64,000 nt of DNA from Flavobacteriales bacterium UBA3364 (GCA_002360495.1 DEQO01000055.1:25645-89644); one strand, 5' to 3'. Positions 4,017 through 25,351 are shown, numbered from the stretch's first letter. Translations and numbers: made by a program. Notes: generated by a model not told the origin, from the sequence alone.

Positions 4017-4035
4017 TGCGTGGTCAGAGGACGGT

Positions 4036-6020: not shown

Positions 6021-6053
6021 TTCGGGGCGCAAATCTAGCTGTTGGTGGATACA

Positions 6054-6085: not shown

Positions 6086-6217
6086 CGTTCGTCGCCTTCG
6101 ACCAGGAGAACGAGCAGCGCCGCTTTTTACTCTTTCCGCTGCCGCCGCATCGCACCGGTATGCATATCACACCTCCGTGGTATTGGACAACACAACGGGA
6201 ACCATCACCTTTCGACC

Positions 6218-8122: not shown

Positions 8123-8125
8123 ATC

Positions 8126-10141
8126 ATGATACGCCTGCGGTGTTCCTTGTTCCGTGTATTCGGCTTCGCGATGGCCTATGCCTGCACGCAGATCGGCAAC
8201 GCCCAGGAATCACCGGAACGGTTGGATTCCGTACTGCCGCTCCTGAACACCTCCATCAGGGATACCGCACAGCTGGACCTGCTCATCATGGTGGCCGAGT
8301 CCTGGTACACATCGGACAATGCCTACCCATACCTGGCGCGGATGGACAGCCTCTCCGCAGAACTGCTCAAGAGCCCGAACGCGGATGTACGGCGCAGGGC
8401 ACGCCACGCTCGCGGTGCCTACCACTATTTCATCGGCTACCACGCCAAGTTCGCCCGGAACATCCCCCTGGCGCTGCGATCGCTCCAGCAGGCACTGGCC
8501 GATTTCCAGGTCCACAACGAACGCCATGCGATGGCAGAGACCAATGACGCATTGGGCGTACTGTTCCGCGCAGCGGGGCATCCTGAGCGGTCCATCGCGT
8601 TCTTCCAGGAAGAACTTCGTTTGGGACGCGAATTGCGGCACGACCATGTGACCAACCAGGCCCTTGTCCATCTGGCCGCTGCGCACATCGAGAGCCATCG
8701 GCCGGACATTGCGGCGATATACCTCGATTCATGTGGCAGGGGCACGCCGGCGGACAGTTCCGCGGTACTGTTGGAACGGGCGAAGATCAGCACGCTCCAG
8801 GGCAAGCATTCGGACGCCATCGCACAACTTGAAAAGAGCCTGACGTTCGCCGGGCGATCGGCGAACCCGTGGGACAAGTTGCCCGTTCTTTCCCCCCTGG
8901 CCCGGTCCTTCTACGCCATCGGTAAACATGAGAAAGGTCTTGCGGCCGCTCGCGAATGCGTAGACATCGCCGAGCGCATGGGCGACCAGACCGCGCGTTG
9001 CGCATGCACCATGTTGATCGGCATCGGGGAACTTTCCTTGGGCCGGGACGCCGATGCCGAACGAACGCTTCTCGAAGGATTGCGACTGGCCGAAGCGAAC
9101 CACAACGTGGGCGCGGCCCGCGAACTCGGTGACGAGGGATCCATGGTGCATGCGAGCAAATTGCTCAAGGACCTGTACCGGAAACAAGGACGCCTACCGG
9201 AGGCGCTCGCCATGACCGACCTATGGTCCGGTTTGAAGGACAGTGTTGCACGCATGGACGGGCGGGAAGAGATCCTCTTGTTCGAATTCCAGCGCGAACA
9301 CTACACCGACAGCCTGGCGAACGTGGAACAGGTGCGGTCCCAACAAGCGCTGCACGATCGCCAGATCGCAGCCGAAAAGACCCGGCGCAACATGTTCGCC
9401 CTGTTGGGGATATTACTGCTCGTGGTGGTGGTCGCATTCTGGAGCAGGGCACGCCTGTTGCGCCGCAGCAATGCCGCGATCCTGACGGCACAGGACCAGT
9501 TGCTCGCCAGCGAAAAAGCATTGGAGGCAGAGGCCGTGCGAACACGGATCGCACGCGATATCCACGACGAGCTCGGAAGTGATCTGACCAAGATCGCCAT
9601 GCTCGGCAGTGAAGCGAAACGCCGCATGGCCGATGGGTCGGACCAAGTGGCCCCGGTTCTCGATCGGCTCGGGCGTTTGGCCCGGGAGGCTGGCGGCGCA
9701 TTGAAGGACATCGTCTGGTCCGTGGATCCCGAACAGGACACCTGGCAAGGACTTGTGCATCACGCGCGGGTGTACGCCCAGCGCGTCCTGGATGGAACAG
9801 GGGTCGAAGCCGATCTACAATTCGGGCATTCCGGTCCGGATGCCCCGATCGACCCGGCCACCAAACGCAACATCTTCCTGGTCCTGAAGGAAGCCTTGAA
9901 CAACGCGCTGAAGTATGCGCAAGCCTCCCGGATCAGCGTTCATTTGAACACCTCCATGCACGGCTTCCAGTTGACCGTCTCCGACAACGGTCCTGGGTTC
10001 GACCCGGTGAACGCAAGCCAGGCAGGGAACGGCCTGCGTAACATGCGCACTCGCGCAGAACGCTTGCGGGCGGAACTCCGCATCAGGGCGAACGACCCGC
10101 AGGGAACACGCCTGGAGCTCGTCTCCGTCACCGGTCCGTGA
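8126..10141 (+). CDS. TPR-repeat sensor histidine kinase, tandem paralogue of 6218..8122
   Basis: 671 aa with the same architecture. The C-terminal ~200 aa are near-identical in motif order to the upstream HK (IHDELGSDLTKI, VWSVDPEQDTWQGLV, DAPIDPATKR, GNGLRNMRTR). The N-terminal TPR sensor region is divergent. Starts 4 nt after the upstream HK. Confidence 0.85.
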   Translation: MIRLRCSLFRVFGFAMAYACTQIGNAQESPERLDSVLPLLNTSIRDTAQLDLLIMVAESWYTSDNAYPYLARMDSLSAELLKSPNADVRRRARHARGAYHYFIGYHAKFARNIPLALRSLQQALADFQVHNERHAMAETNDALGVLFRAAGHPERSIAFFQEELRLGRELRHDHVTNQALVHLAAAHIESHRPDIAAIYLDSCGRGTPADSSAVLLERAKISTLQGKHSDAIAQLEKSLTFAGRSANPWDKLPVLSPLARSFYAIGKHEKGLAAARECVDIAERMGDQTARCACTMLIGIGELSLGRDADAERTLLEGLRLAEANHNVGAARELGDEGSMVHASKLLKDLYRKQGRLPEALAMTDLWSGLKDSVARMDGREEILLFEFQREHYTDSLANVEQVRSQQALHDRQIAAEKTRRNMFALLGILLLVVVVAFWSRARLLRRSNAAILTAQDQLLASEKALEAEAVRTRIARDIHDELGSDLTKIAMLGSEAKRRMADGSDQVAPVLDRLGRLAREAGGALKDIVWSVDPEQDTWQGLVHHARVYAQRVLDGTGVEADLQFGHSGPDAPIDPATKRNIFLVLKEALNNALKYAQASRISVHLNTSMHGFQLTVSDNGPGFDPVNASQAGNGLRNMRTRAERLRAELRIRANDPQGTRLELVSVTGP

Positions 10142-10205: not shown

Positions 10206-10850
10206 ATGGAGGTACGGCCGGTCCGCGTTGCGTTGGTGGAGGATGACAAGGAGATCCGCGAACTGCTGCAGAGCGGTTTGGAACGGGCGGAAGGCATCCA
10301 GGTGGTGCGCTCCTTCCCGAACGCCGAGGATTTCCTGGACGTTTTCGAAGCATTGGCGGTGGATGTGGTGCTTATGGACATCAACCTGCCCGGAAAAAGC
10401 GGGATCGATTGTATCCGTGAGGCCAAACCGACCAAACCTTCCGTGCAGTTCCTGGTGTTGACGGTGTTCGAGAACCCCGCCTACATCTTCCAAGCCCTGT
10501 GTGCTGGAGCCACGGGATATCTGGTCAAGAACGAGGAACCCGAACAGTTGCACGCCGCGATCCACGATATCCATGCCGGTGGCTCGCCCATGGCCCCGGC
10601 CATTGCACGTTTGGTCGTGGCCAGTTTCCAGCGCGAGGTGCAGGTCCGCATCCAGGACCACGCGCTCACCGAACGGGAAAAGAACGTGCTGGACCAGTTG
10701 GCCAATGGACTTATGTACAAGGAGATCGCCGCCAAGGCCGAGATCAGTACCGAGACCGTACGCAAGCACGTACGCAACATCTATGACAAGTTGCAGGTCT
10801 CCTCGCGCATGGAGGCCATCAGAAAGGTGTATCCAGGGGCGTCCCTTTGA
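10206..10850 (+). CDS. NarL/FixJ-family response regulator (REC + LuxR-type HTH)
   Basis: 214 aa. REC domain with VALVEDD, phospho-acceptor D in VLMDINLPG, and conserved K. C-terminal LuxR HTH: REKNVLDQLANGLMYKEIAAKAEISTETVRKHVRNIYDKL. Confidence 0.9.
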   Translation: MEVRPVRVALVEDDKEIRELLQSGLERAEGIQVVRSFPNAEDFLDVFEALAVDVVLMDINLPGKSGIDCIREAKPTKPSVQFLVLTVFENPAYIFQALCAGATGYLVKNEEPEQLHAAIHDIHAGGSPMAPAIARLVVASFQREVQVRIQDHALTEREKNVLDQLANGLMYKEIAAKAEISTETVRKHVRNIYDKLQVSSRMEAIRKVYPGASL

Positions 10851-10891
10851 TACGGATCCCGTCGCTCGGAGGTAACACTAAGTGGGTATTG

Positions 10892-10923
10892 CCGGTCTCC
10901 TTAGGGACCGGTTGCTTTGGTTC
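10892..10923 (+). terminator. Putative intrinsic terminator after the response regulator gene
   Basis: Hairpin CCGGTCTC-CTTA-GGGACCGG (8-bp stem with one G.U pair, 4-nt loop) followed by the U-rich tract GUUGCUUUGGUU. A second overlapping IR GGGACC..GGTCCC extends to 10932. Confidence 0.35.
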
Positions 10924-10937
10924 AGTGGTCCCAAGCC

Positions 10938-12680
10938 ATGCTGCGAACCGTGCACACAGTACCGCGTCGTGTTCCTTCGCCCAGGTGTTGCCGGCCTTCG
11001 GCCGCAGTGCTACTGGTGCTCTTTTCGGTCGGATCGATCCCGGCACAGGACCTTGCGCAGATCGGCAAGACGGAGCCCGTTCGCGTGAACGGCAGTTTAT
11101 CGTTGTTGGGTGGTCCCTACTTCTTCAGTGGTGACGGATCGCCGCGCAACCAACCCTTCTGGTGGAGCGCCAATGGGGCTTTGAACCTGAGCATCTACGG
11201 TATTCAAGCCCCTTTCAGTTTCACGCTCAGTTCACAGCAACGTTCCTATACCCAACCCTTCAACCGCTACGGATTGAGCCCCTACTACAAGTGGGTGCGG
11301 CTCCATGTGGGGTACCGGAGCATGCGGTTCAACCCATACACACTTTCCGGCCTGCAATTCTTCGGCGCTGGTGTGGAACTGGAGCCGAAGGGCTTCCGGT
11401 TCGCCGCATTCTACGGACGCTTCAAGAAGCCGGTGGCACAGGATACGTTGGCTTCCATCACTCCGGCCACCGCCTATCGCCGAACAGGCTTCGGGGTGAA
11501 GGTCGGAGTCGGCAACCCACGCAATTACGTGGACCTCATGTTCTTCCGCGCAGCGGATGATACGACCTCGATACCGGATATCGGGACCACTTCCAATGTC
11601 GCGCCGAAGGAGAATGTGGCACTGGGGATCAGTTCCCGGATCACTGTGACGAAACAGATCACCTGGACGCTCGACCTGGGCACCACGGTATTGAACGAGG
11701 ATATCCGATACCCGGCACGGACGGACGTGGAACTCCCGGATTTCGTCACCGGGATCTTCAACCCGCGCGCTGGCGCCAAGGCACTTTTCGCCGGCAACAC
11801 GGCTATTGGTTACAACGGTCGCACCTTCGGTATCCGCGGACAATACAAGCAGGTGGACCCGGACTATCGCTCGCTCGGGGCCTTCTACCAGCAAAGCGAC
11901 CTACGCGCCATCACACTGGACCCCAGCTTCCGCCTCCTGAAGAACAAGCTGCGTATCGGAGGAAGCATCGGTCGGCAGCAGGACAATCTCTACAAGCGAA
12001 AAAGCTATACCTCCATTCGCAGCATTGGATCGGCGAACATCTCCTACAATCCATCGGCGACCTACGGGATCGACCTGAACTTCTCCAACTACGGTATCGC
12101 ACAAGAAGCCGGCTTGCGCGCTGTGGTCGATACGTTCCGCGTGGCGCAGGTCAACAGAGCCTATTCAGTAAGCCAGCATTTCTCGCGCACGAACAAGATC
12201 CGGACCCTCGCGGTATCATTGGCAGTGGGTCTACAGCAACTGCAAGACCTCAACCCCTACGGCACCTTCGATGCGTCGGAGAACGACGTGCTCTATGGCA
12301 ACCTCTTCGTCAGCCACACACGCCTGAGGGGGAACCTGTCCGTAAGCGGTGGCCTCAACTTCAGTCGCAATACCACCAGCTTCGGGGAGAACATCCTGAT
12401 CGGTCCCACCGCAGGGGTCTCGCAGCAGTTCGCCGGTGACAAGATGATCGCCTCGCTTTCCGCCACCTGGAACAAGGCACTGCAGAACCGCGAGCCGTCG
12501 GGTACCACCATCAACGGTACAGGGACCATCCAGTACCGGTATTCCGCCATGCACCGGTTCCAGATCAGTGTGAACGTATTGCAGAACAGTACTTCGTTCG
12601 TGGCCAACACGCAATTCACCGAGGTGCGGCTCCTAGGGGGCTATGTGTTCGTATTCCAACCGAAAGCCGAGAAAACATGA
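10938..12680 (+). CDS. Predicted outer-membrane beta-barrel-like protein (putative porin-like), function unknown
   Basis: ORF 10917..12680 begins with TTG. ATG at 10938 gives MLRTVHTVPRRVPSPRCCRPSAAVLLVLFSVGSIPAQ, a signal peptide. Remainder is rich in alternating aromatic/polar beta-strand-like segments (GYRSMRFNPYTLSGLQFFGAGVEL, FRFAAFYGRF, RTFGIRGQYKQ) and ends GGYVFVF. Stop overlaps the next start (ATGA). Confidence 0.6.
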   Translation: MLRTVHTVPRRVPSPRCCRPSAAVLLVLFSVGSIPAQDLAQIGKTEPVRVNGSLSLLGGPYFFSGDGSPRNQPFWWSANGALNLSIYGIQAPFSFTLSSQQRSYTQPFNRYGLSPYYKWVRLHVGYRSMRFNPYTLSGLQFFGAGVELEPKGFRFAAFYGRFKKPVAQDTLASITPATAYRRTGFGVKVGVGNPRNYVDLMFFRAADDTTSIPDIGTTSNVAPKENVALGISSRITVTKQITWTLDLGTTVLNEDIRYPARTDVELPDFVTGIFNPRAGAKALFAGNTAIGYNGRTFGIRGQYKQVDPDYRSLGAFYQQSDLRAITLDPSFRLLKNKLRIGGSIGRQQDNLYKRKSYTSIRSIGSANISYNPSATYGIDLNFSNYGIAQEAGLRAVVDTFRVAQVNRAYSVSQHFSRTNKIRTLAVSLAVGLQQLQDLNPYGTFDASENDVLYGNLFVSHTRLRGNLSVSGGLNFSRNTTSFGENILIGPTAGVSQQFAGDKMIASLSATWNKALQNREPSGTTINGTGTIQYRYSAMHRFQISVNVLQNSTSFVANTQFTEVRLLGGYVFVFQPKAEKT

Positions 12681-15600
12681 GCGACCGGCCGATCACCTGT
12701 TTCACGTATGCGCTTGCTCTCCTGCTTGCCCCCCTCGTGACGTTGGGGCAGAACCAACTCACGATCGATGTGCAGGTGACCCCACCGTACAGCGCGAACT
12801 ATGCCGACTACTTCCAAAGCGGGAACCAGGTCTTCATCCGGATCAACAACCTGGCACCCGGAGCCCCAACGTACCAGGTCTATCTCACGGGTTACATCCG
12901 TACGGTCGATGGGTCCGTCTCGGTCGGCATTCCACCGCAGACCCGATGGAACGCGCCACCGCTGACGGTCGTTCCCGGCGTGAACCAACTAACCGGCTCC
13001 GATCTGCAGCCCTTTCTCGCCAGCGGGGGTTCGGAGATCGAATTCATCGGAACGAATGAAACGGACATCCGGACAGGTCTTTTGCCGGAGGGTGAATACC
13101 AGATCTGCCTGCAGGCCTTCGACTACAACACGGACCAACCGCTGTCCATGGAGAACCCATCGGCAGGGTGTTCCAACATATTCAACGTCACGTTCCCACC
13201 ACCGCCGATCCCCACTTCCCCTCTTTGTGATTCGGATGTGCCGGCCATGACCCCACAGACGGTGGTCTTCATGTGGAACCTGCCTCTCGGTCCACCACCC
13301 GGCGCATCACTGGTCTACCATTTCAAACTGGTGCATCTGGGCGACGACGACCTGGGGGCGATCGACGTGGTCTCCGCACTGGAAGCCTCGACCTTCCCCT
13401 GGCACGAAGCGGAACTGACCACGCCGATGCTGCTGTACGACCAGACCAAACCTCCGCTTGAACAGGGACAGCGGTACGGCTGGCGCGTTCAGGTGGAGGA
13501 TGTGGTCGGTGGGACGGTATACCAGAACGACGGCTTTTCCGAACCCTGCATCTTCACCTACTCTGCAAACGTACCCCTGATCGCGGAGAGTCCCTCGCTC
13601 TTCAAGATCGCTTACCCGGCGAACGGTGACACGTTGCCTTGGGACTTCATGCCGATCATACAGCGTTTCGATCCCTATCAGGAGATCCAACACTTCAATA
13701 GTGCCCTGACCATTACCGAGGATGGCGCAACATTCGATGATCAAGCGCGGGACCTGCACTGGAACAGCGGTCCACAACGCTCCCAGCAATTTCTGGTGCG
13801 CGATGGCCTTAACAACGATAACATCAATATCACGCTGGAAGAATCGCAGCATGTGAACATCTACAAGAGTCCGGCCGAACCGCCTGGAAAGCGTTTCATG
13901 CACGGACACACATACAGTTCGGTCGCGACGTTGCGGACAGCGCTCACCTATGACGGGCCATATACCAACTCCGAGCAGGTCTTCAACGCGTTCCGTAGCG
14001 GCATGGCCACCCCCCGACCCCGTGCTCCGGGATACAACGAACGGTTACCAAAGAACGGTGGCGATGCTTCCTTAAGCGGGTTCGCGGGCGTAGCGATCAG
14101 GTTCAAGACCTCCGAGCCCCCTTCGCGCCTCACCCCTCCATTCCCGATCTGGTACATACCGAACGGTGGTACCCCCACACAGATCAGTGGGGCTGTGAAC
14201 GAACGCTGGCGACTGGAGATCTCCAAGGACGAGACCTTCACCACCACCGTTGAAGTGAAGACCGGCCGCATCGGCGTGGGCGTGGAAATGCCCGGCCTCA
14301 ACGCAACATGTACCGAGCAATGCCTGATCGATTCGCTCTACAAGGAAGTCGCCTACACGTTCACACCCACCTCGGAAGGAACCTACTTCTGGCGCGTAAG
14401 CTGGCTCTCCGATGCTGAGGATCCATTGAGCAAACCGTATCTCACCGGCCCCGTATGGAAATTCACCATCGGTGAAGGTGCTGCCGAAGTGGAGCAAGAG
14501 GAAGAGATCGTGCGAGAGACCGACCTCAACTGCCTGGCGGGATGCGCCATGTCACCGATCCCTGCAGCCGAACGCATGCCTGTGAAAACGGCCCAGATAG
14601 GCGATACCATCGACGTAGGGCTCTTCGAGATGCGCCTGACGCAGATCGCGTGGACCGGCGTGGAGGCCACAGGCCAAGGCACGATCGAGGTCCCCTTCAT
14701 GCACGCACCCTTGCGCGTGCGCTTCGAGCGGATCAAGATCAACCAGCGCAAACGACTGTTCGAAGGCGAAGTGAAGGGGGTCCACGACAACGCGGACGTG
14801 ATCCCACCGGCTTGGATACAGGGTGGTGCCATGGCCGCAGGTTTCAATGCGCAGGATGCCGAAGCGATCGAGAACTATGTGAACGCACAAGGGCGGCTGG
14901 TGAGCCAGATGACCATGAGCAACCCCATGGGACTGCCCATCGCCATCGATTCGCCAAACCCGGAGATACCGATGTCCGTGTCGGTGCTGGCCATGCGCTT
15001 TGTGGACACGCTGGCCACGATGAACGCGGTAATGAACTACCGCATCCCTGAAGAAGGCCTCAACCTCGGCCTGGGTAATATGGATATGCCCTTCACCCCG
15101 AGCGGCCCGGGTTGTGTCACGGCGCAGGCCACACTATACCTCGTGAACGATGTGAAAGTGAAGATCACCGAAGACCAGGACAGCCTGCTCTTCAAAGGAA
15201 CCAAGTTCGAGACACACGACTTCCAAGCCGTACGCGACTCGGGCACCTTCGTGGCGTGGGATTGTCACGGCTTCAGGGCGATCACCATCGATGGCGAATA
15301 CCGTTTCAGCCGTGAGACGTTGGTCGAGGACCTGCCCGACGGAACCGATGGTCCCACGAAGATCGCAGCGGCATTCAAGGGAAGAGCCGGACGCCAGGGC
15401 TACCTCCTACGTGCCGACTTCAACAAGCCGTTCCATGTGAAGGGTGGTTCCGGTTGGGGCTTCGATGTGCAGGAGGCGTGGGTCGATCACGCGAGCTACA
15501 CCAACCCGAGCCAGATCAGGTTCCCCAAGGACTACGGCCAGATCACGGGACTTGCACAAGCGGGACAACCGATCCCCACAAGCTGGCATGGATTGTACAT

Positions 15601-18600
15601 CGAACGCGCCATGATGCGGTTGCCGGAAGAGATCGAGGCGTTCGACCAACCCGGTCGTGTCACGGCCGTTGTGGACCACCTGATCGTGGATGGCAATGGC
15701 CTTTCCAGTGAATTGAAAGTGGCCAACCTGCTTGGGCCGGATGAAGGGAACCTCGATGGCTGGGGTTTCTCCATGGACACATTGCAGTTGGATATCATCG
15801 CCAACTCCTTCAGCCAAGCCGGGTTCAAGGGCCGCATCCACCTGCCCATTTCGGACACCTTGCTGACGTACTCCGCGATGCTTCAGCAGAACATCGTCGA
15901 TAACGACTGGCGTGCAGAGTTCCTTGTCCGGCCGGAGAACGACCTGAACGTTCCCATGTTCTTCGCCGAGATGAAGTTGGAGGAAACCAGCTACATCCAG
16001 GCCGTCGTGGGGGACGAACAGGAAGGCACCTATGCGAAAGCCGAGCTCAATGGCCTGATCACGATCAACAAGGACAACATCCCCAAGATCGGCCGGATGA
16101 GTTTCCGTGACATCCGTTTCAACCACCTCACGTTCGAGACGCGTGATCCCTACACCAATGCTGGCCAGTCGGGCGTGTTCTCGCTCGCCAGCCCGCAGAA
16201 GTGGATCGGCGGCACTTCCGCACCGACCGATCCCGCGAACGGCGAAGAAGGGGAACACAAGGCCGGCGGCTTCCCGATCACCATTACCAAGGTGGATATG
16301 GAACGGCGCAACCTCGATGGGAAAAAGATGGTGGGCCTTTGTTTCGATATCAGCTTGAACCTGACCGGAGATGAGAACGTGTTCACCGCCACCACGCGCA
16401 TCGCCGTGCTCGGCGAACTGAACACCGAAGCCATGCACAAGTGGGGACACAACGAAGTGGAGCTCGACTCCATCGGGGTATACGGTGATGTGGGAGTGGT
16501 GAAGGTGAGCGGTGGGTTGCGCTTCTACTACGGCGACGACATCTATGGTGATGGCATAAAAGGTCTGTTACGCGCTGAATTCCTGAAAGGCAAACTGAAG
16601 GTGCAGGCAGCGATGCAATTCGGCAGCAAGGGCACCCTACGCTATTGGTACGCCGATGCCATGGCCGCCATGGAGAATGGCATCGACGTGGCGCCCGGTT
16701 TCACCGTGTATGGTTTTGGCGGCGGCGCCTGGAGGCACATGAGGCGAACATCCGATCCACCCAGTGCCAAGGACATCACCAACCAGATCATCAGCGAGCA
16801 GGATGAGGAGAACCAACCCGTGGGGCTATCGCTTTCCGGGATCACGTTCGTGCCGGATGCAGCGATCAACTATGGATTCCAGGCCACCATGGTATTCGGC
16901 AATCCGGGTGGCGGAACAGCCTACAACGCCGATGTTACCATTGGCGCCGATATCGGGACCACCGGTGGGGTAAGCAGAATGTTCCTGAACGGACATGCGT
17001 ACTTCCTCGGCACCCGCAACGAACGCACCTACACCCCTGTCCACGGCGAGGCGGATATCTACTTCGACTTCCCCAATGATGTGTTCTCCGCGCAATTCGA
17101 TGTGTACGTATCCATTGGCAGCGGTATGGTGACCGGCCTGGGTGCCGGTGACCACGCCGGCCGTGTGGCGCTCTACATCAGCTCGGACACCTGGCACTTG
17201 CATGTTGGTACGCCGGACACCCCCATCGGCCTTGACTTCGTGGGGTTGTTCGATATGGAGTCCTACTTGATGATCGGTGAAGACCTTCCGGCAGCTATGC
17301 CTCCACCGTCCGAGGTAACGGCCAAGTATGGCATCACAGCACAGAACCTTACCTCACAACGGCAGGACTTCTCCAATGGCCTGAACGGGTTCGCCATGGG
17401 TGGCCGAATGTCGGCGGGCGACACCTTGAAATTCGGGTTGCTCCGCTTCCGTTTCGCGGCTGGTATGGGCTTCGACCTTTCTCTACTGGACTATGGGGAT
17501 ACCGAGTGTTCCGGCAGCGGCGAACAGATCGGCGTGAACGGATGGTATGCCGAGGGGCAGCTCTACGGCTACTTTACCGGAGCGGTGAGCTTATACGTGG
17601 ATCTATGGTTCACGGAAGGTGAATTCGAGATCTTCGAAGTTGGTGCTGCCCTGCTGGTCCAAGGAGGTTTGCCGGAGCCCTATTATGCAATGGGCAGTGT
17701 GAGCGGTCACTATAGCATTCTCGGTGGCGCGATCAGTGGGAACGCCAGCTTCCCGTTCGAGTTGGGAGAACAGTGCGACCCCAGCGAAGGCACGCTGGGC
17801 GGACTGGAACCGATCCGGGACCTCAAACCATCGCACGGGGCACTGGCGGTCAGTTGCGGTGTGAATCCCGAGGCCACCTTCGACGTGTCGATGAACGAGG
17901 TCTTCGAGATGTACGAGATCAAGGATGACGGCGGCCGGGTGCGTCACGTGTACCGATTGACGATCGAGAAGTTCGAGGTCAAACAAGGCAGCACCGCACT
18001 TACTGGTACCCAACATTTATCAACGAGCAAGGATCAGGTCACCTTGATCCCCAACGCGTTCCTGGAAGCGAACATGGCGCATACGGTCACCATCCGTGTG
18101 AAGGCGGAGGAAATGAACACCTCCACCATGGAATGGGCCCAGGCGCGCAAGGATGGTAGCCCCGTGTTCTGGGAAAAGACGCACTCCTTCACCACGGGCC
18201 CCGAACCAGATCGGATCGATCCATCGTGGGTGAACTACTCCTACCCCTTCCACGATCAGCGTCGCCTCCTGCAGGACGAGTGTCGCAATGGTTTCATTGA
18301 AGTGAAGTCGGACATGACACAAATGGACCTGTTCGATACCACACCGGCGGAGAACAAGGTGCGCACGTTCCGCGTGGTGTTCACCCCGGTTTCTGGGGGC
18401 GCAACCCTGGAAAGCCCCGTTCAACTTTCGGGCGGCGCACCCATGCACATCTTCTTCGAGATCCCTGTGCTGTCCAATAGCAAGGTGTACCGCGTGCAAT
18501 TGATCGCCAAGGACTCCACCGTAAACACACACACCGGGCCACAAGCCGTCCTTGCCGGGGTCGCTCTCGACCACTCCGCCATGATGTTCTCAACCGGCAG

Positions 18601-19642
18601 CTATACCAACCGGAGCCTCATGGACGGCAGGATCCAGCTACGGCAACGAACCTTGGCAGGGTACTCCTTGCGCTCCAACGAGAAGATGTTGTACAACTTC
18701 TATTTCGGTACCTCGCAACACAACACCCTGGCATCGAAGGTGGCCGCCATGCAACACGTGGTCACGGTGCGCGACCCGGTCACGCCGATCACGGCGGTGA
18801 ACGAGCACCTCTACTCCTACTATACGGGTGAGCGATTCGATCGCGTTGATGTGCGCGGTTTTGCATACGGTCCCGGCGCCGGCCTGAAGATCCCTCCGCT
18901 CGTCGATATCTCCGAGGCGCGAACCGATGCATGGACCACCTCCTGGGCACAACCCATTATCTACGACTTCTACTCGGCAGCAAGAAATCACCCGTACACA
19001 CCCACCTTGCTGAAACTCAACCGAGGACTCATCTACACGGAGGCCGGAGTAATGCAAGGACCCGATACCATCGGGATCCCGCCAACAAACACCATCTGGT
19101 TCGATGTGAACACCCCGACCGCAGCCCTGCTCACGGCTTCTGATAGACGATCGAACTCGCTGTACGGCAACAACGCGATCGTCGCAGATGGATTACCTCT
19201 TGCGGTGGCCGTTGGCGAATCAAGCGGTCCCGTATCGGATGTTCGCCTGAAAACGAGCACGGCGATCTACGTGCGACAGGACTATCTCCGGATGGCCACC
19301 ATTACCGGCGATATCTCTTCGCGGTATGGCTCACCCTATGGCCAGGAGCATTTCATCGGCGAACCGGTCGATGAGTATATGCGCGATTACCTGGAGTCGA
19401 CCTATAAGGTGATGTACAAAGGCACGTATGCAGCCGATCTCGAGTTCCGTCCGCCGTTCACCTGTGTGGAGAACATCATTCTCCGAACCACAGGCGAAGG
19501 AGAGGGACCTGCGCCCAACCCAGTGGGCTCACGTGTGCAGTATGTTCATACCACAGGTCCAAGCGCCCCACGCCGCATCACATTCGGAACTGAGGCGACA
19601 CCACCCACCAAGAGTACCAGTACCACAAGCCCAACCCGATGA
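12677..19642 (+). CDS. Giant secreted/cell-surface protein (2321 aa), uncharacterised
   Basis: Signal peptide MSDRPITCFTYALALLLAPLVTLGQ. N-terminal FN3/Ig-like modules with paired Cys and Y-x-WRV motifs (QRYGWRVQV, GTYFWRVSW), then ~1800 aa of beta-rich Gly/Asp/aromatic sequence with no obvious internal repeats and no T9SS CTD. ATGA overlaps at both ends indicate translational coupling with the flanking genes. Confidence 0.85.
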   Translation: MSDRPITCFTYALALLLAPLVTLGQNQLTIDVQVTPPYSANYADYFQSGNQVFIRINNLAPGAPTYQVYLTGYIRTVDGSVSVGIPPQTRWNAPPLTVVPGVNQLTGSDLQPFLASGGSEIEFIGTNETDIRTGLLPEGEYQICLQAFDYNTDQPLSMENPSAGCSNIFNVTFPPPPIPTSPLCDSDVPAMTPQTVVFMWNLPLGPPPGASLVYHFKLVHLGDDDLGAIDVVSALEASTFPWHEAELTTPMLLYDQTKPPLEQGQRYGWRVQVEDVVGGTVYQNDGFSEPCIFTYSANVPLIAESPSLFKIAYPANGDTLPWDFMPIIQRFDPYQEIQHFNSALTITEDGATFDDQARDLHWNSGPQRSQQFLVRDGLNNDNINITLEESQHVNIYKSPAEPPGKRFMHGHTYSSVATLRTALTYDGPYTNSEQVFNAFRSGMATPRPRAPGYNERLPKNGGDASLSGFAGVAIRFKTSEPPSRLTPPFPIWYIPNGGTPTQISGAVNERWRLEISKDETFTTTVEVKTGRIGVGVEMPGLNATCTEQCLIDSLYKEVAYTFTPTSEGTYFWRVSWLSDAEDPLSKPYLTGPVWKFTIGEGAAEVEQEEEIVRETDLNCLAGCAMSPIPAAERMPVKTAQIGDTIDVGLFEMRLTQIAWTGVEATGQGTIEVPFMHAPLRVRFERIKINQRKRLFEGEVKGVHDNADVIPPAWIQGGAMAAGFNAQDAEAIENYVNAQGRLVSQMTMSNPMGLPIAIDSPNPEIPMSVSVLAMRFVDTLATMNAVMNYRIPEEGLNLGLGNMDMPFTPSGPGCVTAQATLYLVNDVKVKITEDQDSLLFKGTKFETHDFQAVRDSGTFVAWDCHGFRAITIDGEYRFSRETLVEDLPDGTDGPTKIAAAFKGRAGRQGYLLRADFNKPFHVKGGSGWGFDVQEAWVDHASYTNPSQIRFPKDYGQITGLAQAGQPIPTSWHGLYIERAMMRLPEEIEAFDQPGRVTAVVDHLIVDGNGLSSELKVANLLGPDEGNLDGWGFSMDTLQLDIIANSFSQAGFKGRIHLPISDTLLTYSAMLQQNIVDNDWRAEFLVRPENDLNVPMFFAEMKLEETSYIQAVVGDEQEGTYAKAELNGLITINKDNIPKIGRMSFRDIRFNHLTFETRDPYTNAGQSGVFSLASPQKWIGGTSAPTDPANGEEGEHKAGGFPITITKVDMERRNLDGKKMVGLCFDISLNLTGDENVFTATTRIAVLGELNTEAMHKWGHNEVELDSIGVYGDVGVVKVSGGLRFYYGDDIYGDGIKGLLRAEFLKGKLKVQAAMQFGSKGTLRYWYADAMAAMENGIDVAPGFTVYGFGGGAWRHMRRTSDPPSAKDITNQIISEQDEENQPVGLSLSGITFVPDAAINYGFQATMVFGNPGGGTAYNADVTIGADIGTTGGVSRMFLNGHAYFLGTRNERTYTPVHGEADIYFDFPNDVFSAQFDVYVSIGSGMVTGLGAGDHAGRVALYISSDTWHLHVGTPDTPIGLDFVGLFDMESYLMIGEDLPAAMPPPSEVTAKYGITAQNLTSQRQDFSNGLNGFAMGGRMSAGDTLKFGLLRFRFAAGMGFDLSLLDYGDTECSGSGEQIGVNGWYAEGQLYGYFTGAVSLYVDLWFTEGEFEIFEVGAALLVQGGLPEPYYAMGSVSGHYSILGGAISGNASFPFELGEQCDPSEGTLGGLEPIRDLKPSHGALAVSCGVNPEATFDVSMNEVFEMYEIKDDGGRVRHVYRLTIEKFEVKQGSTALTGTQHLSTSKDQVTLIPNAFLEANMAHTVTIRVKAEEMNTSTMEWAQARKDGSPVFWEKTHSFTTGPEPDRIDPSWVNYSYPFHDQRRLLQDECRNGFIEVKSDMTQMDLFDTTPAENKVRTFRVVFTPVSGGATLESPVQLSGGAPMHIFFEIPVLSNSKVYRVQLIAKDSTVNTHTGPQAVLAGVALDHSAMMFSTGSYTNRSLMDGRIQLRQRTLAGYSLRSNEKMLYNFYFGTSQHNTLASKVAAMQHVVTVRDPVTPITAVNEHLYSYYTGERFDRVDVRGFAYGPGAGLKIPPLVDISEARTDAWTTSWAQPIIYDFYSAARNHPYTPTLLKLNRGLIYTEAGVMQGPDTIGIPPTNTIWFDVNTPTAALLTASDRRSNSLYGNNAIVADGLPLAVAVGESSGPVSDVRLKTSTAIYVRQDYLRMATITGDISSRYGSPYGQEHFIGEPVDEYMRDYLESTYKVMYKGTYAADLEFRPPFTCVENIILRTTGEGEGPAPNPVGSRVQYVHTTGPSAPRRITFGTEATPPTKSTSTTSPTR

Positions 19643-21717
19643 ACATGCACGAACCAAGGCATCTCCTGGCCCTGCTCCTGGTACTTGGCTGCGCATTTCC
19701 AACGGCGGCACAGGGGCTGATGGCCATTGCGCGGAACACGAATGACTCGGTGGTGATCCGCTGGTCGCCCACAAATATCCGCACGTGGGAAGGTATCCGA
19801 CGCTACGGCGTCAAGGTGGAACGGCTTACCATTCAACAGGGAATGACGGGCAAGCCCACTGCTGATCGCATCTCGCCCGATACGATCAAGGTATGGTCCA
19901 TGGAACGCTTCCGCGCCAATTTTCCAAAGGACCATGCCTATGCGCCGGCCGTGGTGCAAGCCCTTTACGGTAAAACCTTCGCCGCGCCACCCGGCCAACC
20001 CGATCTGCGCAATGCCATGGACCGGGCCAATGACCAGCAACTGCGTTGGACCTTCTGCATGCTCTTCGCCGATATAGATGCCGGATCAGCGAATGCAATG
20101 GGGCTGCGCTGGGTGGATCGTGACCTGAGCGTGGATGCGCTCTACCTCTATCGGGTCATTGCTCTGGATCCGCTTCAACGAGATACCGCATTGATCGGCG
20201 TGAACCGCAAGAACGGTCCTGATGCAATTGCCGCTGTGCCGCAACCCGTGGCCGAGGAATTGGACGGCGCTGTCCGTTTGCAATGGGATGCTGGCAGGAC
20301 CGGCGAACAGTTCAGCGCCTACTGGATCGAACGCTCCGGCGCCGGAAAACCATGGAGCAGGGTCCACGCACGCCCATTCATCGAATCCATGGGTGTTGCT
20401 CCAGGCCCATTGGAAGTGGTGCACTATACCGACACCACATTGACCGCCAACTACGTGCCCTACCAATACCGGGTCGTTGGCGTAACACCGTTCGGCGAAG
20501 AAAGCCCACCCTCCAGCACCATTGCCGCAATGGGGCGTGATCGCACCGCACCATCCGCACCCGTGCTGAAGGAGGTGAAGGACGTGCGCGGCAAACTCGT
20601 GGTGTATTGGGACCAACCATCAGCCGCTGCGGATCTCAAAGGATTCCGCGTGGAGAAATCCCCGGAACCACAAGTGGGCTTTCTCCCTCTGCACGAAGGT
20701 CTGTTGCCAACAACAGCGCGATCATTCACGGACACCTCGACATTCCTGATCGGCGAGAACCATTTCCGCGTCGTGGCCTTGGACACCGCCAACAACGCAT
20801 CGTTCTCGTTGACCGGTTACGGTTCGCTCATTGATTCGATCGCGCCCTCCACCCCGACCGCATTGACCGGTTCCATTGATACACTCGGCGTGGTGCGCCT
20901 GCATTGGAAAGTGGGGCCGGAGCAGGACCTGCTCGGCTACCGCGTGTTCTTCGCCAACGCAACGGACCACGAATTCACCAATCGGACCGGTGTTCCGGTA
21001 GGCGATACCACGTTCACCGATACGATCCCGTTGAATACCCTGACGAAACGCATCCATTACCGCATCGCGGCAGTCGATCGCAATTTCAACCATAGCGATC
21101 TCGGGCCGATCCTCACTCTTCTTAAACCCGACATCGTTCCGCCGACGGCACCCGTTTTCGCTGGACAACAGGTCTCGGACACCACGGTTACCCTGCGCTT
21201 CGTCCCAAGCTCCAGCGAGGACCTCGCGCACCACCGGCTATTGCGGAAACTGCAGGGCGATACCATTTGGACCGAGCTCTTCATCTGGCCCGCAAGTGAT
21301 GTACGACGGGAGATCACCGATGGGACCGTGAACGGTCCAGCCTACTTCAGCTACTCGATCATCGCGGTGGACAGTGCCGGCAATAGCACCAGTGCCCCGG
21401 GTACGGCGGATGTCCGCGTACACAAGCACCTGCGCAAAGCAGGGCCTTCCGGCCTGCGAGGTTTTCACGACCCGCTGAGCAAGATGGTGCAGTTGAACTG
21501 GTCAGCGCCGTCGGCACAGGTGAAGCACTACATCATCTATCGGAGCAAGGATGGAGGCAACTTGGTTTCGCTCGCTTCAGTAGAGGGATCGCGTACTGGT
21601 TTCGAGGATATGCGATTGACAGGGGTCGGTCGCTACGACTATCAGCTTCAAGCGGTCTATTCCGATGGTGGCGTTTCGGCCATGGTACCCTGCGCGAACC
21701 CCATCGAGGTGAGATGA
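19639..21717 (+). CDS. Secreted multi-FN3-domain protein
   Basis: 692 aa with signal peptide MNMHEPRHLLALLLVLGCAFPTAAQG. Five or more FN3-like units with recurring motifs (VVIRWSP, YGVKVERL, LQWDAG..YWIERS, GFRVEKS, LGYRVFFA, KHYIIYRS). Start overlaps the giant gene stop. Confidence 0.8.
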   Translation: MNMHEPRHLLALLLVLGCAFPTAAQGLMAIARNTNDSVVIRWSPTNIRTWEGIRRYGVKVERLTIQQGMTGKPTADRISPDTIKVWSMERFRANFPKDHAYAPAVVQALYGKTFAAPPGQPDLRNAMDRANDQQLRWTFCMLFADIDAGSANAMGLRWVDRDLSVDALYLYRVIALDPLQRDTALIGVNRKNGPDAIAAVPQPVAEELDGAVRLQWDAGRTGEQFSAYWIERSGAGKPWSRVHARPFIESMGVAPGPLEVVHYTDTTLTANYVPYQYRVVGVTPFGEESPPSSTIAAMGRDRTAPSAPVLKEVKDVRGKLVVYWDQPSAAADLKGFRVEKSPEPQVGFLPLHEGLLPTTARSFTDTSTFLIGENHFRVVALDTANNASFSLTGYGSLIDSIAPSTPTALTGSIDTLGVVRLHWKVGPEQDLLGYRVFFANATDHEFTNRTGVPVGDTTFTDTIPLNTLTKRIHYRIAAVDRNFNHSDLGPILTLLKPDIVPPTAPVFAGQQVSDTTVTLRFVPSSSEDLAHHRLLRKLQGDTIWTELFIWPASDVRREITDGTVNGPAYFSYSIIAVDSAGNSTSAPGTADVRVHKHLRKAGPSGLRGFHDPLSKMVQLNWSAPSAQVKHYIIYRSKDGGNLVSLASVEGSRTGFEDMRLTGVGRYDYQLQAVYSDGGVSAMVPCANPIEVR

Positions 21718-21837
21718 CGCTCTTCTTCGCCCTACCACCTAAGTGTTATTGATATGCCAGCCGCATACCAAGTACTTCGTGTTTGCATGAAGCCCCCACG
21801 GACCCACAATACAAGCGAACCCCAAACGCCGGTACCC

Positions 21838-22329
21838 ATGAACAAACCATCCTTCCGTGGTCCACTGGCCTTGTTGGCCTTCGTCCTGGGAACAGGGTAT
21901 TGCGCCGGACAAAGTGTCCTGTCCGCCGGCGGTGGAACAAACGATACCGGTCCTACGCGCATTACCTACACCATCGGTGAACCCGTGATCACCACGGAGG
22001 GCAATGGAGCGAGCCAACTCACCCAAGGCTTCAACCAACCATGGGTCGACATCAACACCGCCGTGGACGACCCTGGCATCGGCGAGAACACCATCAGTGT
22101 CTACCCCAACCCGGTACGCCATGTGTTGAACATCGCACTTTCGGAAGACCCGGCCGATCATCGGTACGAGTTGTTCGATGCGGTGGGCAAGCGGGTCCTC
22201 GACGGCCGGGTAGAGGGCACGATCACTGAACTGGATATGGAGCCCTATGCCAGCGGGGGTTACTTCCTGCGCGTGTTCGGCCCCGATGATTCCTTCCTCC
22301 GTTCATTCAAGATCAGCGTTACCCACTAG
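21838..22329 (+). CDS. Small secreted protein with T9SS type-A C-terminal sorting domain
   Basis: Listed ORF 21754..22329; internal ATG at 21838 gives signal peptide MNKPSFRGPLALLAFVLGTGYCAGQ. C-terminal ISVYPNPVRHVLNIAL...YFLRVFG...KISV is a Por_Secre_tail-like CTD. Confidence 0.7.
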   Translation: MNKPSFRGPLALLAFVLGTGYCAGQSVLSAGGGTNDTGPTRITYTIGEPVITTEGNGASQLTQGFNQPWVDINTAVDDPGIGENTISVYPNPVRHVLNIALSEDPADHRYELFDAVGKRVLDGRVEGTITELDMEPYASGGYFLRVFGPDDSFLRSFKISVTH

Positions 22330-24975: not shown

Positions 24976-25351
24976 CCTGGACAGGGTATTGATGCCATTT
25001 GCAGCATGAGTTCGATCTGGTCTGCGACGCCCTACAGCCGAGCCGCTGTCCGGGCTCCAAGCCGCTGTTCGCTGCGCCGCTCGCTCTTGTCTGACACGAT
25101 GAGAGCTGCGAGAACAACTCGATCATCAGGGCCCTTGGTCCAGCTGGGTTCCGTCCCTAGGGCGGCCTCATGCCCTATGCACTGATCCTATGCACTGCGT
25201 TCAATCCGCTACCGAAAAGCGACGATTGCCCGTCCCAAGGAATCTGGCTCTAGCGCAAACGTCTTCGATCTTGGCATCTAACGAAAGTTACCCCGTTCAA
25301 AGCCTTGATTTCCTCGCTCGTAGAAGGGTTCTACGCTACTTTCACCCCATC

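What the first reader, a model, noticed from the sequence alone, without database searches (positions are those of the whole stretch)
10206..21717. Translationally coupled operon of an OM beta-barrel-like protein, a 2321-aa giant secreted protein and a multi-FN3 protein, downstream of a two-HK/one-RR module: candidate undescribed envelope system
Seen in sequence: genes 10938..12680, 12677..19642 and 19639..21717 overlap by ATGA at both junctions, which indicates obligate co-expression. The first is beta-barrel-like with a signal peptide. The second is among the largest ORFs possible in a 64-kb window, is secreted, has FN3/Ig-like N-terminal modules, and lacks both a T9SS CTD and any recognisable enzymatic motif. 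The third is an all-FN3 secreted protein. Immediately upstream sit two paralogous TPR sensor kinases and a NarL-type regulator; a hairpin at 10892..10923 may separate the regulator from the operon. Inference: this looks like an outer-membrane pore plus a giant substrate or structural partner plus an accessory FN3 protein, an architecture reminiscent of but not matching PorP/SprF-SprB pairs or SprA. I cannot place the giant protein in any named family from the sequence alone.
Basis: partly seen in the sequence, partly recalled or inferred. Interest (0 to 1): 0.7.

Follow-up and report, generated by a model that had tools for sequence, protein, structure and literature searches.

The report
Outer-membrane barrel, giant protein, FN3 partner
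Three tightly linked genes (a large outer-membrane barrel of an unnamed family, a 2321-residue exported protein with a TANFOR-like head, and a multi-FN3 protein) form a module conserved across Bacteroidota and relatives, and it may be the missing export or anchoring route for TANFOR-type giant proteins and toxins.

Summary
Genes 10938..12680, 12677..19642 and 19639..21717 exist, overlap by ATGA, and all carry signal peptides.

- **First protein.** It is predicted to be a 24-26-strand outer-membrane beta-barrel. It has no Pfam or NCBIfam model, and its family holds about 3,200 clusters at 50% identity.
- **Giant protein.** It can be placed. Its head is a sub-threshold TANFOR domain, the mark of a class of large Bacteroidetes proteins described in 2020 as polymorphic toxins with an unknown export route. 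This one has no toxin domain.
- **Synteny.** In 36 of 37 related loci with enough flank, barrel, giant and FN3 genes sit together on one strand, in four different orders. Hosts include Flavobacteriales, Bacteroidales, Chitinophagales, Ignavibacteria, Kapaibacteria and Balneolaceae.
- **Divergent relatives.** Giants that share only the head still keep the barrel and FN3 genes.
- **Strain comparison.** A 99.4%-identical strain carries a replaced allele covering giant residues 781-2321 and FN3 residues 1-420. Across 13 strain pairs the giant's C-terminus is usually its most divergent part.

Best reading, which is inferred: a dedicated barrel exports or anchors the giant by its conserved head, with a polymorphic exposed tail. 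The module is not SprA, PorP/SprF, TamB or two-partner secretion by any tested feature. The HK-HK-RR neighbours are clade-specific.

The parts
6218..8122 (+). Sensor histidine kinase 1 (TPR + HisKA_3 + HATPase_c). It is a clade-specific regulatory neighbour.
   Evidence: Pfam and NCBIfam hits. Conserved upstream only in close Flavobacteriales loci.
8126..10141 (+). Sensor histidine kinase 2, a paralogue of kinase 1.
   Evidence: Pfam and NCBIfam hits. The two kinases cross-hit at about 69% nucleotide identity.
10206..10850 (+). NarL/LuxR-type response regulator (Response_reg + GerE).
   Evidence: It is 63-79% identical in related Flavobacteriales loci, directly upstream of the barrel gene.
10891..10922 (+). 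GC-rich 9-bp hairpin plus T-rich tail between the regulator and the barrel gene. It may be a terminator. The tail holds TTGCTTTG (10912-10919), close to the Bacteroidetes -7 box TAnnTTTG (own knowledge).
   Evidence: Not statistically distinguished from chance.
10938..12680 (+). Outer-membrane beta-barrel of about 24-26 strands, 580 aa, from a family with no Pfam or NCBIfam model. It has a Sec/SPI signal with Gln at +1.
12677..12748 (+). Signal peptide of the giant protein (aa 1-24). Gln25 is invariant in 38 homologues.
12761..13561 (+). Conserved head of the giant: a TANFOR-like domain (aa 29-170) and a second Ig/FN3-like domain (aa about 177-295). It is the only region shared with giants that have unrelated bodies.
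   Evidence: TIGR02542 at 32.8 bits, E 5.6e-8, below the 67-bit cut-off. 37% identity over 280 aa to P0045, whose remainder is unrelated.
13574..14503 (+). Family-specific insert (aa about 300-609). It is absent from distant members in Bacteroidales, Spirosoma and Runella.
   Evidence: Identity profile by block.
14504..17821 (+). Core of the giant (aa 610-1715), a long antiparallel beta-meander with many invariant Gly, Trp and Cys residues.
17822..18121 (+). Big_5-type bacterial Ig-like domain (aa about 1716-1815).
   Evidence: Weak here (15 bits). Above threshold at the same place in the homologue P0031 (28.6 bits) and after the core in the longer L039 giant (28.8 bits).
18122..19642 (+). C-terminal region of the giant (aa 1816-2321), the fastest-evolving part. 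It has no toxin domain and no T9SS CTD.
15000..20900 (+). Allelic island between two about 99.4%-identical strains, covering giant aa 781-2321 and FN3 protein aa 1-420. Nucleotide identity falls to 62-91%, dS is 0.5 to about 2 against 0.02-0.04 in the flanks, and dN/dS is 0.08-0.26.
   Evidence: Window compared with L085.
19639..21717 (+). Exported 692-aa protein of about 6-7 FN3-like modules. It is not a lipoprotein and has no CTD.
   Evidence: Found in 60 of 81 related loci.
21754..22329 (+). Small protein with a T9SS type A C-terminal sorting domain. It is co-conserved downstream of the triad in the Flavobacteriales clade, so its association is possible but unproven.
22333..24975 (+). Exported collagen-repeat trimeric fibre with a tail-spike-like C-terminus and an S74 intramolecular chaperone. 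It is co-conserved with the triad in the Flavobacteriales clade, so its association is possible but unproven.

Best explanation
The three genes encode one envelope machine. The 580-aa protein is a large (24-26-strand) outer-membrane barrel that serves as the dedicated partner of the giant protein. After Sec export and signal-peptidase I cleavage, the giant's conserved N-terminal TANFOR-like head docks to or in this barrel. The beta-meander body and the fast-evolving C-terminal region are then passed to, or held at, the cell surface. The multi-FN3 protein is a third structural subunit. In logic this is a two-partner-like export or anchoring system: a conserved N-terminal delivery domain, a variable passenger, a polymorphic distal end and a cognate barrel encoded alongside. 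It is built from components unrelated to Omp85/TpsB or to the T9SS. In this genome the passenger carries no recognisable toxin, so it most likely acts as a polymorphic surface adhesin or recognition protein. Expression is probably controlled by the adjacent TPR-kinase/NarL system.

Shown: the genes, the signal peptides, the predicted barrel, the conserved synteny with permuted order, retention of barrel, head and FN3 gene when the giant's body is replaced, and the allelic island.

Inferred: physical docking of the head to the barrel, surface exposure, the role of the FN3 protein, and regulation.
For: 1. Functional linkage.
- All-against-all clustering of ORFs from 80 related loci finds only three widely shared families: giant 81, barrel 65 and FN3 60 of the 81 sequences compared, that is the 80 loci plus the window.
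- 36 of 37 loci with at least 2 kb upstream and 4.5 kb downstream have all three. They lie on one strand, usually less than 75 bp apart, in the orders OGF 33, GOF 12, GFO 8 and OFG 1.
- Hosts span Flavobacteriales, Bacteroidales, Chitinophaga, Flammeovirgaceae, Ignavibacteria, Kapaibacteria and Kryptonia.

2. The head goes with the barrel.
- P0045 (L083) and P0052 (L084, Balneolaceae) are CarboxypepD_reg-type giants. For P0045, direct comparison shows that only the first about 280 aa are shared with the window protein. P0052 matches only 7% of the query. Both have a barrel homologue immediately upstream (37% identity; hhalign probability 100) and an FN3-type protein downstream.
- P0044 (L081, Prevotellaceae, 3191 aa) shows the same arrangement.

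3. Barrel.
- AF2 gives about 25 strands with alternating short and long loops.
- Distant family members end in the classical ...Y.F signal.

4. Export. All three proteins have SPI-type signals with Gln at +1, invariant Q25 in the giant and Q37 in the barrel. By own knowledge this is the Bacteroidetes 'Q-rule'.

5. Polymorphic exposed end.
- Against a 99.4%-identical strain, only giant aa 781-2321 and FN3 aa 1-420 are replaced by an old allele. dS is 0.5 to about 2 there against 0.02-0.04 in the flanks.
- In about 8 of 13 other locus pairs the last 1-1.5 kb of the giant gene is its most divergent part. This includes GOF loci, where the next gene (the barrel) is not affected.

6. Published data agree.
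- Supplemental Data 1 of PMC7073777 lists an undescribed 548-593-aa signal-peptide protein upstream of bona fide TANFOR proteins and a 640-725-aa FN3 or unannotated protein within two genes downstream of most of them. These loci include toxin-bearing proteins in Chitinophaga and TANFOR proteins without a listed toxin domain in Tannerella, Runella, Spirosoma and Pedobacter.
- The Tannerella forsythia TANFOR giant was detected in an OMV/EV proteome (PMC10682907).
Against: - There is no experimental or structural evidence that the barrel and the giant touch. No complex prediction was possible.
- The barrel has no POTRA or other periplasmic domain to receive a substrate.
- The mirror-tree signal that the barrel tracks the head (r 0.95, partial 0.82) disappears in loci where the barrel gene is not next to the giant's 5' end (partial 0.35; in GOF loci the barrel tracks the giant's 3' end). 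It can therefore be explained by physical linkage.
- Some published TANFOR loci lack a roughly 560-aa upstream gene. Marine Flavobacteriaceae have a PKD lipoprotein plus a 750-800-aa protein, and F. johnsoniae and Niastella have a SprB-repeat protein upstream (with a T9SS CTD in F. johnsoniae).
- The giant's core resembles barrel walls, so it could itself be membrane-embedded.
- The TANFOR match is below the curated cut-off.
Confidence: 0.45

Rival explanations
1. The giant and the FN3 protein are T9SS cargo, as proposed for TANFOR proteins by Jana et al. 2020. The barrel would then be a cargo-specific outer-membrane anchor, playing the role PorP/SprF plays for SprB.
For: - More than 95% of TANFOR-encoding genomes have a T9SS, and CTD and SprB domains are enriched nearby (PMC7073777).
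- A T9SS CTD protein lies 36 bp downstream of the FN3 gene here.
- CTD proteins flank the module in L039 and L033.
Against: - Neither the giant nor the FN3 protein has a type A or type B CTD.
- The giant's last about 20 residues are unconserved.
- The barrel gives no PorP/SprF hit in Pfam or NCBIfam, even across 42 family members scanned at E<=1. At 580 aa it is much larger than PorP/SprF proteins (own knowledge).
Confidence: 0.15
2. The giant is itself an integral outer-membrane mega-barrel or membrane-wrapping beta-sheet, SprA-like or LptD-like in architecture. The triad would then be a multi-barrel outer-membrane complex that moves some other substrate.
For: - The core is almost entirely long antiparallel hairpins.
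- Foldseek top hits are LptD (E 1e-6), SlpA and the ApoB100 beta-belt.
Against: - Turns are tight at both ends of most hairpins, unlike the alternating short and long loops of the true barrel next door.
- There is no C-terminal aromatic signal.
- The protein has Ig-like head and tail domains and conserved cysteines.
- Relatives carry secreted-toxin C-termini (PMC7073777).
- No SprA_N, TIGR04189, LptD or TamB signatures were found.
Confidence: 0.15
3. The triad is a housekeeping envelope-biogenesis device for lipid, LPS or outer-membrane protein transport, in the manner of TamAB or LptDE.
For: - A large barrel sits next to a giant beta-rich protein, and Foldseek's best hits are LptD.
Against: - Distribution is patchy. 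A single-motif scan of 185,579 species genomes found about 480 matching stretches.
- Several paralogous copies occur per genome (L017+L076, L043+L069).
- Alleles are strain-specific.
- The module sits under a dedicated sensor system.
- The signal peptide is cleavable, not an inner-membrane anchor.
- There are no AsmA, TamB or LptD domains.
Confidence: 0.05
4. This is a polymorphic toxin system. The giant's divergent C-terminus would be an unrecognised toxin, and the co-varying N-terminal half of the FN3 protein would be its periplasmic immunity or neutralising partner.
For: - The giant belongs to the TANFOR superfamily, many of whose members end in nucleases, deaminases or ADP-ribosyltransferases followed by immunity genes (PMC7073777).
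- The island replaced between strains covers exactly the giant's distal part plus the start of the next gene.
Against: - The C-terminal region is homologous across the whole family, not swapped as cassettes, and decays gradually with no sharp boundary.
- No toxin domain is found here or in longer family members.
- The FN3 protein is large, exported and conserved family-wide, unlike known immunity proteins.
- dN/dS of 0.08-0.26 shows ordinary purifying selection within alleles.
Confidence: 0.1

Closest known systems
TANFOR-domain large proteins / polymorphic toxins of Bacteroidetes (Jana, Salomon, Bosis 2020, PMC7073777; TIGR02542)
   Same: - N-terminal signal peptide followed by a TANFOR-type domain and an FN3-like domain.
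- Length of about 1,400-4,000 aa, restricted to Bacteroidota, with an Fn3 (COG3401) gene next door.
- That paper's own supplementary table lists an unannotated roughly 550-590-aa signal-peptide protein upstream of many members. I verified the same arrangement by sequence in L081, L083 and L084.
   Different: - The match to TIGR02542 is below the curated cut-off (32.8 against 67 bits).
- This protein has no C-terminal toxin domain and no immunity gene.
- The barrel partner, the triad and its reach into Ignavibacteria, Kapaibacteria and Balneolaceae are not discussed in that paper, which proposes the T9SS as the export route.
Two-partner secretion / contact-dependent inhibition (TpsB-TpsA, CdiB-CdiA-CdiI; type Vb)
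   Same: - A cognate outer-membrane barrel is encoded beside a giant Sec-dependent exoprotein.
- The exoprotein has a conserved N-terminal domain, a long beta-rich body and a polymorphic C-terminal end that differs between near-identical strains.
- Relatives carry C-terminal toxins with immunity genes.
   Different: - The barrel has about 24-26 strands, no POTRA domains and no Omp85/ShlB signature.
- The giant has no TPS (Haemagg_act) domain and no FHA repeats.
- A third, FN3-rich subunit is always present.
- There is no sequence or specific fold homology.
T9SS translocon SprA/Sov and PorP/SprF-SprB pairs
   Same: - Same phylum.
- A giant beta-rich protein of about 2,300-2,400 aa next to an outer-membrane barrel, with T9SS cargo genes nearby.
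   Different: - No SprA_N, TIGR04189 or PorP/SprF signatures and no CTD.
Plug-and-barrel complexes with 26-strand barrels (LptD-LptE; MtrB-MtrA/MtrC)
   Same: - A very large single-chain barrel without its own plug, encoded beside exported partner proteins that could occupy its lumen.
   Different: - No OstA/LptD or MtrB family signature.
- Partners are unrelated, and the lumen-occupancy idea is untested.

Membership tests
TANFOR-domain polymorphic toxin class (PMC7073777) | N-terminal TANFOR domain (TIGR02542) | tested here: inconclusive
   Aa 29-170 match model positions 5-143 of 145 with E 5.6e-8, but at 32.8 bits against a curated cut-off of 67. Homologues P0023, P0045 and P0040 score 29-40 bits.
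TANFOR-domain polymorphic toxin class (PMC7073777) | N-terminal Sec signal peptide | tested here: met
   A hydrophobic leader is followed by an invariant Gln25.
TANFOR-domain polymorphic toxin class (PMC7073777) | Polymorphic C-terminal toxin domain | tested here: not met
   No toxin domain was found in Pfam, NCBIfam or PDB sequence searches. The C-terminus is homologous across 38 family members. Longer relatives also have none.
TANFOR-domain polymorphic toxin class (PMC7073777) | Downstream cognate immunity gene | tested here: not met
   The next gene is the 692-aa exported FN3 protein. No small immunity-type ORF follows.
Two-partner secretion (type Vb) | TpsB transporter: 16-strand Omp85-type barrel with POTRA domains | tested here: not met
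   No Bac_surface_Ag, ShlB or POTRA hit. The model has about 25 strands starting right after the signal peptide.
Two-partner secretion (type Vb) | TpsA N-terminal TPS (Haemagg_act) domain | tested here: not met
   No hit.
T9SS cargo | C-terminal sorting domain, type A (PF18962/TIGR04183) or type B (TIGR04131) | tested here: not met
   Absent from the giant and the FN3 protein. The same searches detect it in the neighbouring 191-aa protein.
PorP/SprF outer-membrane partners | PorP_SprF family signature | tested here: not met
   No hit for the window protein or for 42 family members at E<=1.
SprA/Sov T9SS translocon | SprA_N / TIGR04189 signature and a 36-strand barrel fold | tested here: not met
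   [not shown]
TamB/AsmA-like proteins | AsmA or DUF490 domains and an uncleaved N-terminal inner-membrane anchor | tested here: not met
   [not shown]
Outer-membrane beta-barrel proteins (generic) | Closed antiparallel barrel, alternating short and long loops, C-terminal aromatic signal | tested here: met
   [not shown]

The most novel reading that the evidence does not exclude
The triad is a previously unrecognised, FCB-wide outer-membrane export and display pathway. Its parts would be a new family of 24-26-strand barrels (over 3,000 sequence clusters, no database model), a TANFOR head that acts as the delivery or anchoring domain, and an FN3 co-subunit. It would carry both polymorphic toxins and toxin-less, allelically diverse surface giants used for cell-cell or cell-surface recognition. 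This would answer how TANFOR toxins leave the cell without a T9SS signal.
Probability: 0.3. Interest if true: 0.85.

Novelty: new variant of a known kind. Interest (0 to 1): 0.68.

Why it matters
TANFOR proteins were proposed in 2020 as a new class of Bacteroidetes polymorphic toxins, but their route across the outer membrane was left open and only guessed to be the T9SS. A dedicated, always-adjacent barrel of an unnamed family turns that question into a direct knockout experiment, possible in cultured hosts such as Chitinophaga pinensis, Tannerella forsythia, Spirosoma and Pedobacter.

The barrel family is large, with about 3,200 clusters at 50% identity, and it is unannotated. The module's strain-level allelic replacement at the giant's tail suggests a surface determinant under long-term diversifying pressure. 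That is relevant to phage or predator resistance, adhesion, or kin discrimination in abundant environmental and host-associated Bacteroidota.

Tried and rejected
- PDB sequence and profile searches for the barrel and the giant found nothing useful.
- A Foldseek search against AFDB could not be run because the library was not installed. The TamB/AsmA and SprA fold tests therefore rest on PDB only.
- The third large homologue search, with a diverse barrel alignment (A4), returned essentially the same set and did not reach cultured organisms.
- Looking up the Runella giant P0041 failed because it is not on record. Homology of the roughly 560-aa upstream proteins listed in the 2020 paper's table is therefore inferred from size, signal peptide and position. 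It was verified by sequence only in L081, L083 and L084.
It was rerun with A3.
- Mirror-tree co-variation looked striking at first: barrel with head, FN3 with core. Its control failed, because in loci with other gene orders the specific signal vanishes. I therefore treat it as linkage, not as evidence of contact.
- The sigma-70 promoter scan is uninformative for Bacteroidota.
- The other giant ORF in the window (57894..63980, minus strand) is an alpha-2-macroglobulin, not a paralogue.
Full report
**1. The observation**

Both junctions read ATGA. Upstream lie two paralogous TPR + HisKA_3 + HATPase kinases and a NarL-type regulator. A 9-bp GC-rich hairpin with a T-rich tail sits at 10891-10922. 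Such sites are no commoner here than in shuffled sequence, and the intergenic RNA is not unusually stable.

The window comes from a Flavobacteriales MAG. A 100%-identical giant (P0001, 'PLB89_02385') and a 100%-identical 580-aa first protein (P0053) are in public data. G+C content is even across the region.

**2. The first protein is a large outer-membrane barrel of an unnamed family**

- It has a signal peptide (...IPA|QD).
- It gives no hit in Pfam or NCBIfam, nor do 42 family members scanned at E<=1. PDB sequence and profile searches are also empty.
- An AlphaFold2 model built on 42 homologues has pLDDT 80.9 and pTM 0.69. It shows about 25 long antiparallel strands starting right after the signal peptide, with alternating short and long loops.
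- Relatives outside this clade end in the classical ...Y.F motif. In this clade the motif is followed by a few extra residues.
- A full HMMER scan of 1.84 billion representatives finds 3,209 clusters at E<=1e-3 and 1,668 at E<=1e-30. Nearly all of the best 150 listed are single-domain proteins of 545-585 aa.

**3. The giant can be placed in a known superfamily**

Pfam gives nothing. NCBIfam matches aa 29-170 to almost the whole TANFOR domain model TIGR02542 (positions 5-143 of 145, E 5.6e-8), but at 32.8 bits against a cut-off of 67. Homologues behave the same way, and one is labelled 'TANFOR domain-containing protein' by JGI.

TANFOR large proteins were described by Jana, Salomon and Bosis (2020, PMC7073777). 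They found 339 proteins, almost all in Bacteroidetes and about 87% with a Sec signal. Many end in nuclease, deaminase or ADP-ribosyltransferase domains followed by immunity genes. Fn3, PKD, SprB and CTD domains are enriched nearby. The export route is unknown and was guessed to be the T9SS. Only nine papers in the library contain the word TANFOR, and none describes an outer-membrane partner.

The architecture of the window protein is as follows.

| Residues | Feature |
|---|---|
| 1-24 | Signal peptide; Gln25 invariant |
| 29-170 | TANFOR-like domain |
| about 177-295 | Second Ig/FN3-like domain |
| about 300-609 | Insert missing from distant members |
| 610-1715 | Core |
| about 1716-1815 | Big_5 Ig-like domain |
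| 1816-2321 | Tail, the least conserved part |

It has no toxin domain and no type A or type B CTD.

**4. The triad is a conserved unit**

A scan of one genome per GTDB species with a single conserved peptide motif found 492 stretches, and 480 of them were confirmed as relatives. For the 80 best loci:

- tblastn and all-against-all clustering show that only three gene families are widely shared: giant 81, barrel 65 and FN3 60 of the 81 sequences compared, that is the 80 loci plus the window.
- Of 37 loci with enough flank, 36 have both partners. They lie on the giant's strand, usually less than 75 bp away.
- The gene order varies. Writing O for the barrel, G for the giant and F for the FN3 gene, the counts are OGF 33, GOF 12, GFO 8 and OFG 1. 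Conserved neighbourhood with permuted order argues for function rather than inertia.
- Hosts include Flavobacteriales, Bacteroidales, Chitinophaga, Flammeovirgaceae, Ignavibacteria, Kapaibacteria and Kryptonia.
- Several MAGs carry two triads (L017+L076, L043+L069, L022+L050).

**5. The barrel and the FN3 gene persist when the giant's body is replaced**

- P0045 (2425 aa, with CarboxypepD_reg domains) shares only its first about 280 aa with the window giant, at 37% identity. Its locus L083 still reads TPR-kinase, GerE regulator, 563-aa barrel homologue (37% identity), giant, 671-aa FN3 protein.
- P0052 from a Balneolaceae MAG (L084) reads ECF sigma factor plus TPR-Ser/Thr kinase, 579-aa barrel (hhalign probability 100), giant, 688-aa Fn3 protein.
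- P0044 from a Prevotellaceae MAG (L081, 3191 aa) reads TPR-AraC regulator, a 940-aa gene with no Pfam hit, 579-aa barrel (hhalign probability 100), giant, 750-aa FN3 homologue.

The 2020 paper's own Supplemental Data 1 shows the same pattern without comment. An unannotated 548-593-aa signal-peptide protein lies upstream of TANFOR proteins in Tannerella forsythia, Runella, Spirosoma, Pedobacter and Chitinophaga. In Chitinophaga these include the deaminase-bearing toxin of C. pinensis and a BaCT toxin. In the non-Chitinophaga loci a 640-725-aa FN3 or unannotated protein follows within two genes downstream, whereas the toxin-bearing Chitinophaga loci have small, immunity-type genes there. Lewinella has the G-F-O order.

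Not every published locus fits. Marine Flavobacteriaceae have a PKD lipoprotein upstream and a 750-800-aa protein downstream. F. johnsoniae and Niastella have a SprB-repeat protein upstream, which in F. johnsoniae carries a T9SS CTD.

**6. Regulators**

HK-HK-RR is conserved only among close Flavobacteriales loci. Still, a TPR-containing regulator recurs elsewhere: one-component TPR + LuxR/GerE proteins in Bacteroidales and Flammeovirgaceae, TPR + AraC in Prevotellaceae, and an ECF sigma factor with a TPR kinase in Balneolaceae. Other loci have none.

**7. Polymorphism**

A second MAG (GCA_016787685.1, L085) is about 99.4% identical to the window over 27 kb, with dS of 0.02-0.04. That stretch covers both kinases, the regulator, the barrel, giant aa 1-780, FN3 aa 421-692, the CTD protein and the collagen-like fibre.

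From about 15,000 to 20,900, identity falls to 62-91%, with the minimum at the giant/FN3 junction. This covers giant aa 781-2321 and FN3 aa 1-420. There dS is 0.5 to about 2 and dN/dS is 0.08-0.26. So an old, divergent allele has been exchanged by recombination, and each allele is under purifying selection.

In about 8 of 13 other pairs of related loci, the last 1-1.5 kb of the giant gene is its most divergent stretch. This includes GOF loci, where the next gene (the barrel) is unaffected. The tail of the giant is therefore the recurrent hot spot. Co-variation with the FN3 N-terminus is seen where the two are adjacent.

**8. A test that failed its control**

Across 45 complete triads, barrel identity tracks the giant's head (r 0.95; partial 0.82 given the core). 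FN3 identity tracks the core (r 0.94; partial 0.79). In the 18 loci where the barrel gene is not next to the giant's 5' end, the specific signal vanishes (partial 0.35). In GOF loci the barrel tracks the giant's 3' end instead. Physical linkage explains the pattern, so I do not count it as evidence of contact.

**9. Mechanism**

The best-supported reading is a dedicated outer-membrane module. All three proteins cross the inner membrane by Sec. Each has the +1 Gln typical of Bacteroidetes signal-peptidase I substrates (own knowledge of the 'Q-rule'). The plug-less 24-26-strand barrel is the constant partner of the constant head. The variable body and the polymorphic tail are the exported or displayed part. 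The FN3 protein is a further subunit.

The logic is that of two-partner secretion and CDI, but no defining feature of that family is present. The detection of the T. forsythia TANFOR giant in an OMV/EV proteome (PMC10682907) fits outer-membrane association.

I put this reading at 0.45. The rivals are:

| Rival | Confidence |
|---|---|
| T9SS cargo with a cargo-specific anchor | 0.15 |
| The giant as an integral mega-barrel or membrane-wrapping sheet in a transport complex | 0.15 |
| An unrecognised toxin with the FN3 protein as neutraliser | 0.10 |
| Envelope biogenesis | 0.05 |

**10. Verdict**

The finding is real, and the 'undescribed envelope system' reading is largely right, with two corrections. 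The giant belongs, distantly, to the published TANFOR class. The kinase pair is a clade-specific neighbour. The new elements are the barrel family, the triad's breadth and permuted synteny, its persistence across unrelated giant bodies, and the allelic island. I rate it a new variant of a known kind, with interest 0.68. The main gap is the lack of any direct evidence of interaction or localisation.

Noticed in passing
window 21754..22329 and 22333..24975 (+): A small T9SS-CTD protein is followed 3 bp later by an 880-aa exported collagen-repeat fibre. The fibre has a tail-spike-like C-terminus (phrog_4636, 188 bits), a Peptidase_S74 chaperone domain and a weak N-terminal match to Bdellovibrio 'mosaic adhesive trimer' fibres. 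The pair is co-conserved directly downstream of the triad in the Flavobacteriales clade, and partly in Bacteroidales locus L054.
   Followed up: partly
window 25190..26659 (+): A 489-aa protein has no Pfam hit in my scan but weak tail-fibre PHROG hits. Its homologue in L085 carries a precomputed PF26696 'PTL_trimer' label. It may be a second trimeric fibre gene.
   Followed up: no
window 26681..28606 (+): A TPR-repeat protein is fused to an adenylate/guanylate cyclase catalytic domain. It is a third TPR-type signalling protein within 20 kb.
   Followed up: no
window 10912..10919 (+): TTGCTTTG lies in the tail of the hairpin, 19 nt before the ATG of the barrel gene. It differs by one base from the Bacteroidetes -7 promoter box TAnnTTTG (own knowledge). 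The 'terminator tail' may therefore double as a promoter element.
   Followed up: no
window 57894..63980 (-): A second very large ORF (2028 aa as listed) is a bacterial alpha-2-macroglobulin (MG2, A2M, bMG10) and is unrelated to the triad.
   Followed up: partly
window 49601..51580 (-): A 659-aa protein is made almost entirely of Kelch repeats, probably forming two beta-propellers.
   Followed up: no
window 2862..5352 (-); L085 1..3344: This is an RND-type efflux cluster. The window holds a HlyD-family adaptor and an OEP outer-membrane factor. L085 also shows a TetR regulator and an ACR_tran pump. The cluster is divergent from the kinase genes.
   Followed up: no
L017 + L076; L043 + L069; L022 + L050: Single MAGs carry two divergent copies of the whole triad, so the module is paralogously expanded in some genomes.
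   Followed up: partly
L071 (Kapaibacterium), 943..9155: This is the only locus with ample flank that has the barrel and the giant but no detectable FN3 partner within 9 kb downstream.
   Followed up: no
P0003 compared with the window giant: This is a second mosaic pattern. Identity is about 71-79% in the head (aa 1-300), 40-54% over aa 300-600, 78-95% over aa 700-1900, and then falls to 33% at the extreme C-terminus. This points to repeated recombination inside the giant gene.
   Followed up: partly
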